Assembly (NCBI GenBank): GCA_043800705.1
Contig: JAZDMS010000018.1
Coordinates: forward strand, 1-64,000
DNA length: 64,000 bases
Direction of reading: 5' to 3'
Source of the DNA: Candidatus Altiarchaeota archaeon
Lineage (GTDB): Archaea; Altiarchaeota; Altiarchaeia; IMC4; SCGC-AAA252-I15
Shown: piece after piece, positions 19,965-46,912 of the stretch
Position numbering within the stretch: position 1 is the stretch's first letter
Layout: every line of letters begins with the position of its first letter
The notes under the pieces: model-generated
The model's database searches: none
The model's input: only the letters and a program-made list of their open reading frames with translations
What the model was told of the DNA's origin: nothing
Translations under genes and position numbers: made by a program

Positions 19965-20276
19965 ATGGCATTCATAGAAGTCCACATCACCTACCCCGAC
20001 ATGGGGTCTGCGAGGAAGGCGGCGGACGGCCTCTTGAAGAAGCGGCTCATAGCCTGCGCCAACCTCTATCCCGTGGAGAGCGCCTACTGGTGGAAGGGGA
20101 AGATCGAGGAATCGAAGGAAATCCTCGCAGTCGTCAAGACCCGCAAAGAGCTATGGACAAAGCTGAAGGCCGAAGTCGAGAGGACACACCCCTACGAGGT
20201 CCCCTGCATAATTGCGATTGAGGCCGAAGCCAACGACAAATACGAGGACTGGATAAACCATGAGACCAAAAACTAA
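19965..20276 (+). CDS. cutA: Divalent-cation tolerance protein CutA
   Basis: LIACANL, SAYWWKGKIE, HPYEVPCI. Confidence 0.93.
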   Translation: MAFIEVHITYPDMGSARKAADGLLKKRLIACANLYPVESAYWWKGKIEESKEILAVVKTRKELWTKLKAEVERTHPYEVPCIIAIEAEANDKYEDWINHETKN

Positions 20277-21429
20277 TCGTATTAGAAAAATTAACGGCTC
20301 CCTCAAACGAATATTCAGCCCGGAACTCAAATACGTCCTGGTCATTTTCCTCATCACCCGCGCGGCCATGACTCCGCTAATAGTCGAGTCAAGGGCGATA
20401 GGCTCGGAGACGTCCCGTTTTGTCTCGGTGGCCTACGTCAACTACGCCCCCAATTGGCTTGGGGCATGGGGGATGTGGGACAGCGCATGGTACCTTGACA
20501 TAGCAAAAAACTGGTACTCCCCGGAAATCAAAACCGACATATGGCACTACAATCAAGCCAACTACGGCTTCTTCCCCCTCTACCCCCTCCTGATGAGGCT
20601 GATCGGCCAGGCCATCGGCGACTATTTCATAGCAGGCCTCATAGTATCAAACGTTTCACTAATCATCGCATGCCTTTTCATGTTCAAGCTCGCAAGCCTC
20701 CAATATGACAAAGCCACGGCTTATCGCGCAATCAAATACATGTTCCTATTCCCCGCGGCGTTCATGTTCTCCGCAGTACTCACAGAAAGCCTCGCACTAG
20801 CCCTAATACTGGCATCATTCTACTTTGCCAAAAGCGGCGGATGGCTTAAGGCAGGCGTATCGGGATTTCTCCTGGCCCTGACTAAACCCTACGGGGCCCT
20901 GATACTAATCCCCCTATCATTCGAATACTACAAAACATACGGCCTCAAGGTCCGCCCCCAAGCCGCCTCCCTCCTGCTCGTCCCAGCGGGGCTTTTCCTT
21001 TTCATGTGCTTTACCCACATTTTGACCGGCGACTTCATGGCATATCCTCATATCAAGGAGTCGGGGTGGGGACACCACCTCTCGAACCCCGCAACCGTGC
21101 TGGTAGAGGCGATAACCTCCGGCAGGGCGTCATACGTCCTCAACGGCCTCTTCTCAGCCGCCATGATACTAATCCTCCTCCTGAATTATCGGAGGATGGA
21201 ATCCTCCTACCTGCTTTTCGGCCTCCTCTTCACGCTGGTTCCGCTGGCTAACGAGGGCCGAGGGATGCTCCAGTGCATGACAAGATATGCGCTCATCGTC
21301 TTCCCCCTCTACATAACCTTGGCATTGGATACTCGCAGACTGCTGACAGACTATTGTGTGACGGCGACTCTCATCCCGCTGCAACTGATCCTACTATACA
21401 TCTGGGCCAGCGGAACATATGCGATCTAG
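20260..21429 (+). CDS. GT-C mannosyltransferase, PIG-V-like membrane protein
   Basis: WDSAWYLDIA, FFPLYP, TESL, RY motif and multiple TM segments. Confidence 0.82.
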   Translation: MRPKTNRIRKINGSLKRIFSPELKYVLVIFLITRAAMTPLIVESRAIGSETSRFVSVAYVNYAPNWLGAWGMWDSAWYLDIAKNWYSPEIKTDIWHYNQANYGFFPLYPLLMRLIGQAIGDYFIAGLIVSNVSLIIACLFMFKLASLQYDKATAYRAIKYMFLFPAAFMFSAVLTESLALALILASFYFAKSGGWLKAGVSGFLLALTKPYGALILIPLSFEYYKTYGLKVRPQAASLLLVPAGLFLFMCFTHILTGDFMAYPHIKESGWGHHLSNPATVLVEAITSGRASYVLNGLFSAAMILILLLNYRRMESSYLLFGLLFTLVPLANEGRGMLQCMTRYALIVFPLYITLALDTRRLLTDYCVTATLIPLQLILLYIWASGTYAI

Positions 21430-21430
21430 C

Positions 21431-21529
21431 CTAGGCGCCAACGATATAGTCAATTGTCTTCAGGTATGCCTCCAGGTCGTCCATCGTGCGGTCCGCCATG
21501 TGCGCTACCCTGAACGCCTTTCCCTTCAG
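21431..21529 (-). pseudogene. Orphan alternative 3' end of the adjacent class V aminotransferase
   Basis: Translates LKGKAFRVAHMADRTMDDLEAYLKTIDYIVGA*; the gene itself ends LKGKAFRVAHMADRTMDDLEKYLQTIDEIVGY*. Confidence 0.9.
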
Positions 21530-21531
21530 CC

Positions 21532-21584
21532 CTTTTTTCTTTCTTCACAAGAAAGAAAAAAGCGCTGGCGGAAAAAAGAAAGAA
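21532..21584. repeat. Potential intrastrand triplex element (14-bp inverted repeat plus 14-nt homopurine mirror repeat)
   Basis: CTTTTTTCTTTCTT-CAC-AAGAAAGAAAAAAG-CGCTGGCG-GAAAAAAGAAAGAA. Confidence 0.8.
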
Positions 21585-21605
21585 CTGCGGGGTCTTCGAC
21601 CCCGC
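21571..21605 (-). terminator. GC hairpin followed by a U-rich tract, downstream of the aminotransferase
   Basis: Minus strand GCGGGGTC-GAA-GACCCCGC-AG-TTCTTTCTTTTTTC. Confidence 0.55.
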
Positions 21606-21613
21606 CTGCTTCT

Positions 21614-22675
21614 TCAGTATCCTACTATTTCGTCGATGGTTTGCAGATATTTCTCCAAGTCGTCCATCGTTCTGTCGGCCATGTGAGCGACGCGGAATGC
21701 CTTCCCTTTGAGGTCTCCGTATCCGTTGCTGAATTGGTATCCCTTCTCGCCTAATTTCTTGCTTAGGTCAGCGAGGTCGTAGTTCCTGCTGTTGTTGATT
21801 CCTGTGACGGTCTGGCTCATGCACCATTCCTCCGGGTACAGCTGCCAGTTCTTCCTCGCCCACTCCTGCGTGTACTTGGCCATCTTCGCATGCCGTTCGA
21901 CCCTGTTGTCGAGGCCTTCCTTCAGGATTTTCCCGCACTGGTAATCCAGGGCCCTGATCTGGGGGATCGGCGGCGTGCTCGGCGTCTGGTCCTTTTCCGC
22001 CTTCTTCAGGTAGTCCTGGTAGTCGAAGTACAGGCCCCTGTTCGGGGTGTTCCTGGACCTCTCCAATGCCTTCGCGCTGACTGCCGTCATCGCGAGGCCC
22101 GGGGCGACTCCGAAGCATTTCTGCGTCCCAGTGACCAGGACGTCTATTCCCAGCCTGTCGGTCTCTATCTTAGCCCCGCATGCGCTGGAGACCGCGTCGA
22201 CGCAGAACATTACTCCGTTGTCTGAGCAGAGTTTCCCGAATCCATCGAGAGGCGTCATCGCGCACGTCGAAGTCTCGTTGTGCGTCACAAAGAGCGTGTC
22301 GTATTCGCCGGACTTCAGCTTTTCCTCCACGTCCTTCGGCTTCGCGGCGCTGCCCCATTTGACGTCTAACTTGTCCGCCTTCTTCCCGCAGGCGACCGAC
22401 ATCTTGTGCCACCTGCCGGAGAACGCCCCGTTCACCACATGCAGGGCCTTCATGTTGACGCAGTTGAGGACTGCGGCCTCCATCCAGCCGCTCGAGGACA
22501 TGGGGCCGAGGAAGACCGTGTTGTCTGTCAGGAGGATCTTCCTCAGCTTCTCGACGCAGCCCTTGTGGAGCTCGCTGTATTCCTTTCCGCGGTGCCCTAT
22601 CATGGGCTCCGCCATCTTAGCCGCTACGTCCTCCGATACGTCTACCGGTCCTGGTATGAATAGTTTCTTTGCCAA
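21614..22675 (-). CDS. Class V PLP aminotransferase (serine/alanine-glyoxylate type)
   Basis: LFIPGP, MIGHR, THNETST, VDAVSS, GTQKCFG, FRVAHM. Confidence 0.92.
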   Translation of the reverse strand: MAKKLFIPGPVDVSEDVAAKMAEPMIGHRGKEYSELHKGCVEKLRKILLTDNTVFLGPMSSSGWMEAAVLNCVNMKALHVVNGAFSGRWHKMSVACGKKADKLDVKWGSAAKPKDVEEKLKSGEYDTLFVTHNETSTCAMTPLDGFGKLCSDNGVMFCVDAVSSACGAKIETDRLGIDVLVTGTQKCFGVAPGLAMTAVSAKALERSRNTPNRGLYFDYQDYLKKAEKDQTPSTPPIPQIRALDYQCGKILKEGLDNRVERHAKMAKYTQEWARKNWQLYPEEWCMSQTVTGINNSRNYDLADLSKKLGEKGYQFSNGYGDLKGKAFRVAHMADRTMDDLEKYLQTIDEIVGY

Positions 22676-45860: not shown

Positions 45861-45941
45861 AAAACGCCGATATATCTGCATTCCCCCATCAAAAATCTGC
45901 ATTCCCCCATAAAAACGCCGATATATCTGCATTCCCCCATC
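45861..45941. repeat. Tandem repeat: two 30-bp copies plus one partial copy
   Basis: AAAACGCCGATATATCTGCATTCCCCCATC at 45861 and 45912; core ATCTGCATTCCCCCAT occurs three times. Confidence 0.9.
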
Positions 45942-45955
45942 TTATCGGCTGTTGT

Positions 45956-46035
45956 ATGGCCTTTTAACTTTATATTCCCGTCCTTCCGAGAATTCAATGG
46001 CCTTTTAACTTTATATTCCCGTCCTTCCGAGAATT
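45956..46035 (+). repeat. 39-bp direct repeat (2 copies) containing a TATA-like box
   Basis: ATGGCCTTTTAACTTTATATTCCCGTCCTTCCGAGAATT at 45956 and 45997. Confidence 0.9.
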
Positions 46036-46039
46036 AAAC

Positions 46040-46912
46040 ATGGCACAATCCTCCTCATTAAATAGGCGGCAATTTTTACAGGTAACAGGAGCAGCAATCG
46101 CAGCAGGGGCATTACCGAATCTGGTCAACGTGGGTGAACGGCCGCCGTCTACCTACACGGGTGAAGATACGGCCGTTAAATTGACTGAGGCTCAGGAGGT
46201 ATCTGTCAAGAACGGCAAAGGGACCCTGATATTAGCCCCCCTGAAAAAGGATGATGCCCTCGAGCTCCCGGGGGAAACCATCGTGAGGCCCACTACTCCG
46301 GCAGGAAGATTGAAACTCGGATTGCCCGCAGGTGTAAACATCATCTACCCTGGCGGCCCAGATTTAGGCAGTACGTTGAATGCGGAAGGGTCTGTGACCC
46401 TTGATCCGGGTCAAAAGGCCGGGATACCCAAGGGAGACACCAAGACCGTCACAATAGGGGCAGCTGGAACTGTTTGCATAATATTGGGCGGCGAGAATAC
46501 CGAATTGCCTCTCACCACGTTTCCCGCCGGGACAAGGATCATATTAGGGCCGAAAGCGAAAGTGGACTGCAAAGGCAGATCCGAGCCGTTGAAAAAGGAG
46601 AAACCCCCGCGCATGCCCACCATCTTCGAATTGGGCGACGGACGCAAGATCAAATTCATCGAACAATCCAATTCAACAGCCGATTGTGAAGCAATCCTCT
46701 TTGATCTCGACGGAAAGGGTGTTGTTGCAAGACTGGCCGGAAAAACAGCCATAGACGGAGAGACCGTCGCCGGCACTATCTGGACCCAACCGTATGCGGG
46801 TGAGCAGGGCAAGTGGGATATCGTCAACTACAGGGGCGGGAATACAGGCATCCTAACCCTCAGCTGGAATGATAAAGCTGAGCAGAAGCTGCCAGTCAAA
46901 CCGTTGAATTGA
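46040..46912 (+). CDS. Twin-arginine signal-bearing hypothetical exported protein
   Basis: LNRRQFLQVTGAAIAAGAL; beta-rich mature region; lower GC than the flanks. Confidence 0.7.
   Translation: MAQSSSLNRRQFLQVTGAAIAAGALPNLVNVGERPPSTYTGEDTAVKLTEAQEVSVKNGKGTLILAPLKKDDALELPGETIVRPTTPAGRLKLGLPAGVNIIYPGGPDLGSTLNAEGSVTLDPGQKAGIPKGDTKTVTIGAAGTVCIILGGENTELPLTTFPAGTRIILGPKAKVDCKGRSEPLKKEKPPRMPTIFELGDGRKIKFIEQSNSTADCEAILFDLDGKGVVARLAGKTAIDGETVAGTIWTQPYAGEQGKWDIVNYRGGNTGILTLSWNDKAEQKLPVKPLN

What the first reader, a model, noticed from the sequence alone, without database searches (positions are those of the whole stretch)
21532..21605. Perfect 14-triad intrastrand triplex element at the replacement breakpoint
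Seen: the minus (transcribed) strand reads a GC hairpin, then TTCTTTCTTTTTTC-CGCCAGCG-CTTTTTTCTTTCTT-GTG-AAGAAAGAAAAAAG. Segments 2 and 3 form a perfect 14-bp hairpin. Segment 1 matches the purine strand in parallel at all 14 positions (T/U.A-T/U and C.G-C triads). The element ends 2 nt before the orphan gene end. Established: pyrimidine-motif triplexes require this geometry, potential intrastrand triplex repeats are known in some bacteria, and U.A-U triple helices protect 3' ends of some eukaryotic and viral RNAs. Inference: an archaeal ssDNA or RNA triplex acting as a recombination/mobility signal or an mRNA 3'-end stabiliser. This is the best candidate for an undescribed system in the window.
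Basis: partly seen in the sequence, partly recalled or inferred. Interest (0 to 1): 0.78.

Follow-up and report, generated by a model that had tools for sequence, protein, structure and literature searches.

The report
Triplex-type repeat at gene-end breakpoint
A short DNA repeat whose three parts are matched so that it could fold into a three-stranded helix sits exactly where an archaeal gene's tail was swapped for a second copy, and it is one member of a large, apparently undescribed repeat family of small uncultured archaea.

Summary
Observation confirmed. Minus strand 21605-21532 reads an 8-bp GC hairpin, a pyrimidine tract, an 8-nt spacer and a perfect 14-bp pyrimidine/purine hairpin. Tract 1 is the exact mirror of the hairpin's pyrimidine arm (14 of 14 triads). 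It is not single copy: the strict pattern gives 126 matches in 25 of 49 genomes of the order, plus DPANN-labelled archaea and a few bacteria. The three tracts change together. In an unbiased sample of 40 loci, 24 carry a perfect mirror tract (19 different stems), against 8% in cross-locus controls. Three-stranded pairing potential is therefore selected. Whether it acts in DNA or RNA, and for what, is untested. The element ends 2 nt from an orphan copy of the aminotransferase gene's last 33 codons, which differs from the live end as two working alleles would (28 of 99 bases, 4 residues). Similar flank duplications occur at 13 of 131 copies. Best reading: a self-folding repeat module that arrived with an imported gene end and probably also stops transcription from both sides. 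I found no paper on the family. The nearest known kind is the bacterial PIT/TMECO repeats. This scan met the same family before in other genomes, and noted hairpin inserts with duplicated gene ends in this genome.

The parts
21587..21605 (-). GC hairpin GCGGGGTC-GAA-GACCCCGC, 8 nt after the aminotransferase stop codon
   Evidence: 8 pairs, 7 G-C, loop 3, followed by a T-rich run. The same 19-22 nt recur at two other places in this genome and, joined to unrelated sequence, in a sediment metagenome contig.
21571..21584 (-). Tract 1: pyrimidine tract, exact mirror of tract 2. It would be the third (Hoogsteen) strand.
   Evidence: In the family, the run length of this tract equals that of tract 2 in 123 of 131 copies.
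21563..21570 (-). Spacer CGCCAGCG; its CAGC pairs with GCTG after tract 3
   Evidence: Family-wide spacer/flank pairing is 0.61-0.80 at positions 2-5, against 0.36-0.44 in controls.
21549..21562 (-). Tract 2: pyrimidine arm of the perfect 14-bp hairpin
21546..21548 (-). Hairpin loop GTG
21532..21545 (-). Tract 3: purine arm of the hairpin
21527..21531 (-). GGCTG: the spacer's partner, typical of this subfamily. Its CTG is also the first codon of the orphan gene end (3-nt overlap at the junction).
   Evidence: The other CGCCAGCG copies of this genome also end in GGCTG.
21431..21529 (-). Orphan copy of the last 33 codons of the aminotransferase gene. The frame is intact, with stop TAG at 21433-21431, 1 nt from the stop of the convergent gene.
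   Evidence: 28 of 99 bases but only 4 residues differ from the live end.
21614..22675 (-). Class-V aminotransferase gene (353 aa). Its last 99 nt (21712-21614) are the live counterpart of the orphan.
   Evidence: Pfam Aminotran_5, E 3.2e-15. Orthologues are 77-79% identical in the same genus.
20260..21429 (+). Convergent gene for a 389-aa membrane protein with no Pfam family. Read from this side, the element has the order seen after tRNA genes.

Best explanation
The stretch is one copy (spacer type CGCCAGCG/GGCTG) of a dispersed family of about 55-nt repeats found in Altiarchaeota- and DPANN-type archaea. In this family a perfect pyrimidine/purine hairpin is preceded by a pyrimidine tract kept as its exact mirror. 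That is the register needed for a fold-back three-stranded helix (class IV on this strand, class II on the other). Here the repeat lies with a GC hairpin just behind the stop codon of an aminotransferase gene, between two convergent genes. I think it works as a self-folding DNA module. Whenever the strand is single (repair synthesis, replication, transcription) it snaps into hairpin plus third strand. Two consequences are proposed. First, copies move between lineages attached to the end of a neighbouring conserved gene: homology anchors one side, and the copied or transferred tract ends just after the fold, where it is joined by a few bases of overlap. In this window that put a foreign gene end, GC hairpin and element in front of the old gene end, which survives as an orphan. 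Second, its T-runs face both incoming transcription units and probably help to stop them. Shown: the anatomy, the family, three-way covariation, the flank duplications and the coding-type divergence of the orphan. Inferred: that the fold forms in cells, that it forms in DNA and not RNA, and the recombination mechanism.
For: Family: the strict pattern gives 126 matches in 25 of 49 genomes of the order, and 0 for the reversed pattern. Covariation: the T-run next to the spacer is equal in tracts 1 and 2 in 123 of 131 copies (permutation mean 59.8, maximum 75 of 2000), and all three runs are equal in 107. Seven spacer types each hold two or more different fully matched states. Unbiased test (pattern of three purine/pyrimidine runs with no pairing demanded): 1465 overlapping matches against 136 for the reversed order. 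Of 40 loci taken from three genomes, 24 have a perfect mirror tract, with 19 distinct stems. Among 37 asymmetric stems the mirror is perfect in 21 and a direct copy in 1. The cross-locus control gives 121 of 1538. Junction: the orphan starts 2 nt after tract 3 and shares CTG with the element's GGCTG. The orphan differs from the live end at 28 of 99 bases (7, 3 and 18 by codon position) but at only 4 residues. If 14 random hits had fallen on a dead copy, 4 or fewer residue changes would have P = 5e-5. Flank duplications: 13 of 131 copies exceed the 99th percentile of 753 mismatched pairs, and in 10 of those 13 the second copy starts 0-10 nt after the element; 11 of 131 have an exact repeat of at least 14 nt, against 0-4 in 20 controls. 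In this genome, argG (105 nt), a tRNA-Ile 5' part and a third gene end show the same layout. Seven argG relatives and 20 aminotransferase relatives lack it, apart from one independent case. Stops: all 12 pyrimidine/purine hairpin loci of the genome have the T-rich arm first on both strands, none the purine arm first. The GC hairpin plus T-run is the best terminator-like site in 19 kb.
Against: No data show a triplex, or even the hairpin, in cells. In E. coli the comparable TMECO motif gave no in vivo footprint (Holder 2015, discussion passage). A Watson-Crick-only fold competes for part of tract 1. Which of the two gene ends was imported cannot be told. Both are about equally far from 10 metagenome relatives and there is no drop of identity along the gene. 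No donor with gene end plus element was found. The junction rests on one assembly: the only public runs found held a small share and did not bridge it. Duplicated gene ends also occur in this genome without a triplex element (C33) or with the junction away from it (C29), so the element may be a passenger of another process. The stop-signal role cannot be strong in the tRNA direction. The genome's one credible tRNA-Ala(UGC) gene has the element, with a T5 run, inside its intron and must be read through. Copies within a genome are related, so counts overstate independence.
Confidence: 0.5

Rival explanations
1. The element is mainly a compact two-way transcription stop between convergent units. 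The GC hairpin plus the T-run of tract 1 ends the aminotransferase transcript. The T-run made by the complement of tract 3 ends the transcript coming from the other side. The mirror symmetry is a by-product or serves this role. The flank duplications are unrelated.
For: T-rich arm first on both strands at 12 of 12 loci. Nineteen copies abut tRNA 3' ends. Plain T-runs of the same wording follow other tRNAs in this genome. Three of 10 orthologous aminotransferase genes are followed by a GC hairpin and a T-rich run (my reading). It is the best terminator-like site in the region.
Against: A stop signal needs no exact mirror tract. Exact mirroring across 19 different stems is unexplained. 27 of 131 copies lie inside tRNA introns that must be transcribed through. 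T-run lengths differ only mildly between intron and trailer copies. Terminator-like sites as a class are not enriched in the region: 16 found, 15.7 expected.
Confidence: 0.25
2. It is an RNA element: a U.A-U/C+.G-C triple helix at the 3' end of the aminotransferase mRNA that shields it from 3' exonucleases.
For: The minus strand is the mRNA-sense strand. The pyrimidine motif forms well in RNA (Holder 2015 introduction, citing Hoyne 2000). Two or three linker bases could cross the short extension helix in A-form geometry (inference).
Against: Two T-runs (T6) and a GC hairpin precede the purine tract, so the transcript probably ends before tract 3. At tRNA genes the transcript-sense strand is the other one in 26 of 27 intron copies and 19 trailer copies, and purine-motif triplexes exclude RNA (cited in Holder 2015). 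There is no Rfam family and no transcript data.
Confidence: 0.1
3. The duplication arose on the spot (insertion with long target duplication, or slippage) and the orphan is a decaying leftover. The element is a small non-autonomous transposon.
For: Insertions flanked by long target duplications that span gene starts or stops are known in bacteria (Furuta 2010, PMC2853133, passages read). Other copies have exact flank repeats of 14-68 nt.
Against: 28 differences with only 4 residue changes, no stop and no indel do not fit decay. No Y1 transposase is found in this genome, its genus or five element-rich relatives. Copies within a genome differ in stem and spacer yet are each internally matched.
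Confidence: 0.1
4. The mirror match is chance among low-complexity T-rich tracts, and/or the orphan copy is an assembly artefact of mixed strains.
For: T-rich tracts match each other at 82% on average in cross-locus controls. The genome is a metagenome assembly of 43 contigs. The junction was not bridged by independent reads.
Against: 0 triples in 6 shuffles against 10 loci. Perfect mirror in 24 of 40 loci against 8% cross-locus. The two gene ends share no long identical word that could mislead an assembler (longest exact repeat about 10 nt). The same layout recurs in other genomes.
Confidence: 0.05

Closest known systems
Potential intrastrand triplex (PIT) elements / ITxF motif classes; TMECO (BoxC) of enterobacteria (Holder et al. 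2015, PMC4666352: abstract, sections 15-16 and passages read; Hoyne et al. 2000 and 2002 only as cited there)
   Same: Three consecutive blocks on one strand, able to form hairpin plus third strand. Class IV on one strand is coupled to class II on the other. Multi-copy and intergenic. Linked there to variable flanks and 'genomic instability'. No function assigned.
   Different: TMECO is G/C-rich with a fixed CCCTC-type wording, 9-nt stems and proteobacterial hosts. This family is A/T-rich, archaeal, with stems of 9-15 nt and many different wordings that covary. The paper's database held archaeal genomes but the text names no archaeal family.
Insertion with long target duplication (Furuta et al. 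2010, PMC2853133, passages read; Nobusato et al. 2000 as cited there)
   Same: An insert with no mobility gene of its own, flanked by direct repeats longer than 30 bp that often span a gene's start or stop. An empty site is found in relatives.
   Different: There the cargo is restriction-modification genes of kilobases and the repeats are near identical. Here the insert is about 90 nt of hairpins, and the two repeat copies differ like two alleles (72% identity, mostly silent).
H-DNA-forming mirror repeats of purine/pyrimidine tracts (as summarised in Holder 2015, introduction)
   Same: Tracts 1 and 2 form a homopyrimidine mirror repeat with an 8-bp spacer, the classic H-DNA signature in duplex DNA.
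   Different: H-DNA needs only the mirror repeat. Here a third, complementary tract is always present on the same strand, so a single strand can fold by itself.
   Same: U.A-U triples with an occasional C+.G-C, clamping an A-rich tract.
   Different: In an ENE the two U-rich strands face each other across an internal loop of a stem and clamp a 3'-terminal A-tract or poly(A). Here the tracts are serial (Y, Y, R), the RNA 3' end is unknown, and orientation at tRNA genes argues against an RNA role.
REP/BIME mosaic intergenic repeats of bacteria with RAYT transposases; recalled
   Same: Short structured modules combined in mosaics at gene ends (GC hairpin, triplex module and other hairpins recur in different combinations).
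   Different: No Y1 (RAYT/IS200-type) transposase in this genome, its genus or element-rich relatives. REPs have no mirror tract.

Membership tests
Intrastrand triplex motif, class IV / class II (Hoyne 2000; Holder 2015) | Three blocks on one strand in the order Hoogsteen pyrimidine, Watson-Crick pyrimidine, purine, with T.A-T and C.G-C triads in register | tested here: met
   14 of 14 triads, read directly; order as defined in the Holder 2015 introduction
   Loops are 8 nt and 3 nt. That is inside Hoyne's limit and outside ITxF's, so ITxF would not have listed it.
Intrastrand triplex motif, class IV / class II (Hoyne 2000; Holder 2015) | Forms a triplex in vitro (CD, melting, NMR) | not testable with these tools
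   The folding tools model Watson-Crick pairs only
TMECO / BoxC | Consensus CCCTCNCCC-N3-6-GGGNGAGGG-N3-GGGNGAGGG, G/C-rich, 9-nt stems | tested here: not met
   The element is A/T-rich with different wording (against the consensus)
Archaeal triplex-type repeat family (defined in this scan, not in print) | Perfect pyrimidine-first hairpin with a mirror pyrimidine tract 5' of it; many copies per genome and across genomes | tested here: met
Archaeal triplex-type repeat family (defined in this scan, not in print) | Spacer pairs with the 3' flank, with a purine.G mismatch next to the core | tested here: met
   Here CAGC/GCTG with a G.G mismatch. In the family, 91 of 129 copies have at least 4 of 6 positions paired, and position 1 is G.G or A.G in 68 of 129.
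Archaeal triplex-type repeat family (defined in this scan, not in print) | Lies in a tRNA intron or against a tRNA end | tested here: not met
   No tRNA near this copy. 64 of 131 copies have a predicted tRNA within 300 nt and 67 have none. This is a common context, not a requirement.
Intrinsic-terminator-like site | G+C-rich hairpin followed at once by a T-run | tested here: met
   Activity was not tested.
Insertion with long target duplication | Insert flanked by direct repeats over 30 bp, empty site in relatives, no mobility gene | tested here: met
   Repeats of 92-99 nt. No insert in two same-genus orthologues or the 10 closest metagenome relatives. No mobility gene among neighbouring ORFs.
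Insertion with long target duplication | Both repeat copies derive from the target (near identical) | tested here: not met
   71 of 99 bases identical, with differences mostly silent
ENE / MALAT1-type RNA triple helix | Two U-rich strands of an internal loop clamp a 3'-terminal A-rich tract of the same RNA | tested here: not met
   Serial Y-Y-R layout with a 3-nt hairpin loop. The definition is recalled. The RNA 3' end is unknown.
REP/RAYT-type repeats | A cognate Y1 transposase in the genome | tested here: not met
   PF01797 found in 17 of 49 genomes, but not in this genome (87.6% complete), the 4 others of its genus, or G009, G011, G014, G017 and G019, which carry 7-15 strict copies each

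The most novel reading that the evidence does not exclude
A nucleic-acid triple helix is the working part of a transposase-free way of moving DNA. Small cassettes travel between archaeal lineages hitched to the ends of conserved genes (tRNA halves, termini of housekeeping genes). They enter by homology on one side. On the other side they are cut off where the newly copied strand folds on itself into hairpin plus third strand. The fold of the DNA, not an enzyme's recognition site, would then set the junction, and this would drive the constant rewriting of gene borders and tRNA introns in these small genomes.
Probability: 0.2. Interest if true: 0.85.

Novelty: new variant of a known kind. Interest (0 to 1): 0.68.

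Why it matters
Triple helices are easy to make in a test tube, but evidence that cells select for them is scarce. Here comparative data give that evidence directly: dozens of different wordings keep all three strands in register. If the fold is real, this family offers a natural system for asking what intrastrand triplexes do: stop polymerases, end recombination tracts, or mark processing sites. It occurs in organisms (Altiarchaeota and DPANN) whose tRNA introns and gene borders are unusually fluid. The window adds a concrete case in which the element coincides to the base with a gene-end replacement. That links the 'genomic instability' reported for bacterial triplex repeats to a readable molecular scar.

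Tried and rejected
1. Rfam: nothing reached a gathering score around the element (6 weak microRNA-type and similar matches, best E 0.063). Twenty bacterial loci gave only one tRNA.
2. Y1/IS200-type transposase as mobiliser: no association.
3. Orientation relative to protein genes, from crude open-frame calls in 300-nt flanks: noisy, no clear bias.
4. Left boundary of the replaced tract: sliding identity to six orthologues shows no step.
5. Which gene end is native: the orphan is 0.77 and the live end 0.69 identical to G003 over 93 nt. Both are equally far from 10 metagenome relatives. Undecided.
6. Ancestral neighbourhood: homologues of the convergent membrane gene (43% identity or less) have no aminotransferase beside them.
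7. Donor search: 28 metagenome loci were found, and none of the 10 closest has the element or an orphan.
8. Public reads: only two runs, each with 0.04 of the words. Laid contigs are short, none bridges 21529/21532 into the orphan, and the RNA run covers only 21462-21504 with a relative's sequence. This gives no support either way for the junction or for transcription.
9. GC hairpin as a fixed part of the module: found at 23 of 131 copies, against 12 in control windows. It is only an occasional partner.
10. T-run length by context (intron or trailer): a mild shift only.
11. Genome-wide list of local direct repeats (151 with 20-nt words): dominated by repeats inside coding sequence and too unspecific for an enrichment test.
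12. Base composition: no anomaly around the site.
13. The MJRE repeats of M. jannaschii (a lead from earlier notes): the search found no readable paper on them.
14. Mirror against direct test with 9-nt words: not discriminating, because short T/C words are self-mirror. Replaced by the run-length and full-stem tests.

Full report
OBSERVATION. Read on the minus strand from 21605 to 21532 it holds:
- an 8-bp G+C hairpin with a GAA loop, then two bases;
- pyrimidine tract 1 (TTCTTTCTTTTTTC);
- the spacer CGCCAGCG;
- tract 2 (CTTTTTTCTTTCTT);
- the loop GTG;
- the purine tract 3 (AAGAAAGAAAAAAG).

Tracts 2 and 3 form a perfect 14-bp hairpin. Tract 1 is the letter-for-letter reverse of tract 2, so it lies parallel to tract 3 with T over A and C over G at all 14 places. 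That is the geometry of a pyrimidine-motif third strand. In the Hoyne/Holder scheme this strand is class IV and its complement class II (Holder et al. 2015, PMC4666352, introduction passages).

The hairpin can be extended by ordinary pairs between the spacer and the bases after tract 3 (27-nt arms, 85% complementary). The minimum-energy RNA fold (-48 kcal/mol, z = -4.6) also pairs part of tract 1 with the first bases of the orphan gene end. A Watson-Crick-only fold therefore competes with the third-strand fold at this copy.

SURROUNDINGS. The element lies between two convergent genes. One is a class-V aminotransferase gene at 21614-22675 on the minus strand (Pfam Aminotran_5). The other is a gene for a 389-aa membrane protein at 20260-21429 on the plus strand.

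Two bases after tract 3 begins a second copy of the aminotransferase gene's last 33 codons (21529-21431). It is open to its own TAG, which lies one base from the stop of the convergent gene. The live and orphan ends differ at 28 of 99 bases (7, 3 and 18 by codon position) but at only 4 residues. If even half of those changes had fallen at random on a dead copy, four or fewer residue changes would be expected with P about 5e-5. Both copies therefore evolved as working gene ends until recently. One of them was brought in from another lineage, and the gene's end was replaced, not duplicated on the spot.

The CTG that opens the orphan is also the end of GGCTG, the partner of the spacer that this subfamily always carries. 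The joint is thus a 3-base overlap right at the element's edge.

I could not tell which copy is native. I found no donor. The junction is not confirmed by independent reads.

NOT A SINGLE COPY. A DNA search of relatives matched the element itself at many unrelated places. The strict pattern (tract 1 core, 6-14 nt, tract 2 core, 1-9 nt, tract 3 core) gives 126 matches in 25 of 49 genomes of the order. The same pattern read backwards gives none in any genome.

By record titles, most are from Micrarchaeota, Iainarchaeum/Diapherotrites, Altiarchaeota, Pace-, Woese-, Aenigm- and Nanoarchaeota. 23 loci are from bacteria, chiefly rumen Selenomonadaceae. Earlier notes of this scan call the window's genome an uncultured Altiarchaeota archaeon. 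Its own genome has 12 pyrimidine/purine hairpin loci, 10 of them with a mirror tract. Six first-order shuffles gave 0-2 hairpin instances and no triple.

THE THREE TRACTS CHANGE TOGETHER. On 131 non-redundant copies:
- The T-run next to the spacer has the same length in tracts 1 and 2 in 123 (permutation mean 59.8, maximum 75 of 2000).
- All three runs agree in 107.
- The run at the far end agrees between tracts 1 and 3 in 92.
- Among the 113 archaeal copies there are 71 spacer types, and seven of them each hold two or more different fully matched states. For example, CGTGAACG occurs with T4/T4/A4, T5/T5/A5 and T6/T6/A6.

That set was found with a pattern that fixes the core wording, so I repeated the test without it. 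A pattern of eleven pyrimidines, a gap, eleven pyrimidines, a gap and eleven purines demands no pairing at all. It gives 1465 overlapping matches in 44 of 49 genomes, against 136 for the reversed order.

I fetched the first 40 distinct loci listed for three genomes:
- All 40 contain a perfect hairpin of 9-14 bp, with 29 different stems.
- 24 have a perfect mirror of the whole stem at the right place (19 different stems), and 31 are within one base.
- Of the 37 stems that are not self-mirror, the mirror is perfect in 21 and a direct copy in 1.
- Pairing the upstream tract of one locus with the stem of another gives a perfect match in 121 of 1538 cases.

The direct-copy result excludes the idea that tract 1 is kept as an alternative Watson-Crick partner of tract 3. 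I see no explanation for exact mirror covariation other than selection for parallel third-strand pairing. Copies are related, so these counts are not independent events.

The spacer also covaries with the 3' flank. Positions 2-5 are paired in 61-80% of 129 copies, against 36-44% in controls, and a G.G or A.G mismatch usually lies next to the core.

CONTEXT AND ORIENTATION. Of the 131 copies:
- 27 lie inside predicted tRNA introns. In 26 of these the tRNA is on the strand that reads pyrimidine, purine, purine.
- 19 abut a tRNA 3' end in that same relative orientation.
- 8 precede a tRNA on the same strand.
- 67 have no predicted tRNA within 300 nt.

The strong orientation bias shows that transcription or the transcript matters. 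Purine-motif triplexes exclude RNA (cited in Holder 2015). If the triplex is what is selected at tRNA genes, it is therefore more likely a DNA fold or a fold of the antisense strand.

The element cannot be a strong stop in the tRNA direction. The only credible tRNA-Ala(UGC) gene of this genome carries a copy with a T5 run in its intron. Against that, every pyrimidine/purine hairpin in the genome has its T-rich arm first on both strands (12 loci against 0). Plain T-runs of the same wording follow other tRNAs. In the window, the GC hairpin plus tract 1 is the best terminator-like site in 19 kb. A contribution to stopping transcription from both sides is plausible but does not explain the mirror.

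GENE-END DUPLICATIONS RECUR. Comparing the 220 nt before each copy with the 220 nt after it, 13 of 131 copies score above the 99th percentile of 753 mismatched pairs. In 10 of those 13 the second repeat starts 0-10 nt after the element. 11 of 131 have an exact repeat of at least 14 nt, against 0-4 in 20 shuffled pairings.

In this genome, all four copies with the CGCCAGCG spacer that I saw have repeated flanks:
- the window;
- argG, with 105 nt repeated, 68 of them identical and the rest differing only silently;
- a tRNA-Ile 5' part;
- a pair of similar small units that may be paralogous genes and not a scar.

Seven argG orthologues have no such structure. The aminotransferase orthologue of another genus has its own, differently placed orphan end behind a degenerate element.

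The link is not exclusive. Another gene end in this genome is duplicated around an insert that has the same GC hairpin but no triplex element. Behind tRNA-Leu a tandem unit is joined away from the element. The same 30 bases of GC hairpin plus tract 1 continue into unrelated sequence in a sediment metagenome contig. The intergenic DNA here is a mosaic of small hairpin modules that are reshuffled together with gene ends. No Y1 transposase accompanies them.

HOW IT MOST LIKELY WORKS.
- Shown: a conserved, covarying three-tract design; its exact coincidence with a gene-end replacement joint; recurrence of such joints at the purine-arm edge of the element.
- Inferred: the element folds on itself whenever its strand is single. 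During repair synthesis or strand transfer primed in the conserved neighbouring gene, the newly made strand is released once the fold is complete, and it is joined back through a few bases of overlap.

This would explain why the joint lies just after the hairpin, why the carried gene end looks like a foreign allele, and why the family clusters at highly conserved sequences such as tRNA exons and essential gene termini, which offer homology between lineages. I give this about even odds as a whole. The identity of the element as a member of the family is near certain. Selection for three-strand pairing is likely (about 0.8). The recombination mechanism is a minority-to-even bet. The main rival is a two-way transcription stop, and the two are not exclusive.

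COMPARISON WITH THE KNOWN. The closest kind is the bacterial potential intrastrand triplex repeats (PIT, BoxC, TMECO). These are also class II/IV, multi-copy and intergenic, and their flanks are unusually variable among strains (Holder 2015: abstract, sections 15, 16, 19 and discussion passages). The present family differs in composition, wording, host domain, loop length (the 8-nt loop is outside ITxF's 1-6 nt window), the extra spacer helix, the tRNA and gene-end context, and above all in the breadth of three-way covariation.

The duplication resembles 'insertion with long target duplication' (Furuta 2010, passages), but the repeats here are allelic, not identical. ENE/MALAT1-type RNA triple helices share the triads but not the layout (recalled).

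Four literature searches found no description of such repeats in archaea. Papers outside the held library could exist.

EARLIER NOTES OF THIS SCAN. At least eight earlier reports describe the same repeat family in other genomes. Several others describe hairpin inserts flanked by duplicated, silently recoded gene ends, including one on another piece of this same genome. I reached the family, the covariation and the flank duplications from my own calls. The notes supplied the paper on insertion with long target duplication and the organism label. One of them offers a different reading of a silently recoded duplicate, as a translated leader. I could not test that for this orphan.

VERDICT. A real, non-random element. 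It is a new archaeal variant of a known kind (intrastrand triplex repeats) with unusually strong comparative evidence that the three-stranded register is selected, and it sits to the base at a gene-end replacement joint. Function and physical fold remain untested.

Noticed in passing
G000 contig C18:34839-35110 (locus L234): The last 105 nt or so of argG, with part of its terminator hairpin, occur twice around a full element of the same CGCCAGCG subfamily. 68 nt are identical and the upstream 37 nt differ only silently. The second copy is followed by an older, truncated element of another subfamily. Seven relatives have neither.
   Followed up: yes
G000 contig C33:12163-12360 (locus L235): A gene's last 37 nt, including its stop, are repeated 162 nt apart around an insert. 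The insert contains the very same GC hairpin as the window (19-22 nt identical) but no triplex element. Another part of the insert recurs on contigs C34 and C14.
   Followed up: partly
G000 contig C29:31391-31762: Behind tRNA-Leu(TAG) lie two tandem units of about 240 nt. Each starts with a tRNA 3'-end piece and contains an element whose spacer is expanded by two extra hairpins. The first unit ends with the window's GC hairpin.
   Followed up: partly
Locus L010 (G013:C30), just after the aminotransferase stop: The orthologous aminotransferase of another genus has its own orphan copy of the last 23 codons, 48 nt downstream, behind a short degenerate T4/A4 relic with the same spacer logic. This is an independent event at the same gene.
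   Followed up: partly
Loci L048, L079, L086, L089, L095, L097, L098, L126, L134, L137-L141, L143 (Selenomonadaceae/-ales); L049, L066, L091, L148, L153 (Clostridiales/Oscillospiraceae); L067, L124, L123: Bacterial genomes carry elements with the same core wording and a spacer that pairs with the 3' flank, at least 8 copies in one rumen Selenomonadaceae genome. Tract 1 and tract 2 runs are equal in 17 of 18. No Rfam family matches. Shared descent or convergence is open, because the search pattern fixed the core.
   Followed up: partly
G000 contig C25:46741-46980 and locus L038 (G003:C32): Tandem units of about 75 nt with C/D-box-like motifs (my reading) are separated by an element. At what looks like the same locus in a same-genus genome, the element belongs to a different spacer subfamily and is placed differently. 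This fits turnover of elements.
   Followed up: no
G000 contig C14:126605-126825: The single credible tRNA-Ala(UGC) gene has one element in its 89-nt intron and a second one directly after its 3' end. The intron copy's purine mirror tract is itself followed by a complementary pyrimidine tract, giving two adjacent hairpins in the RNA.
   Followed up: partly
G000 whole genome: All 12 pyrimidine/purine hairpin loci have the pyrimidine arm 5' (on both strands, by symmetry). Purine-first hairpins of the same kind: none.
   Followed up: yes
G000 contigs C39:8084, C24:1910, C22:34246, C20:71263, C23:407: Pieces of tRNA genes (5' or 3' ends, 20-54 nt) are repeated 100-270 nt from the genes, in line with earlier notes on tRNA-end scars in this genome.
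   Followed up: no
window 45861-46040: Two short tandem repeats (30 nt with period 51; 39 nt with period 41) turned up in the list of local direct repeats.
   Followed up: no
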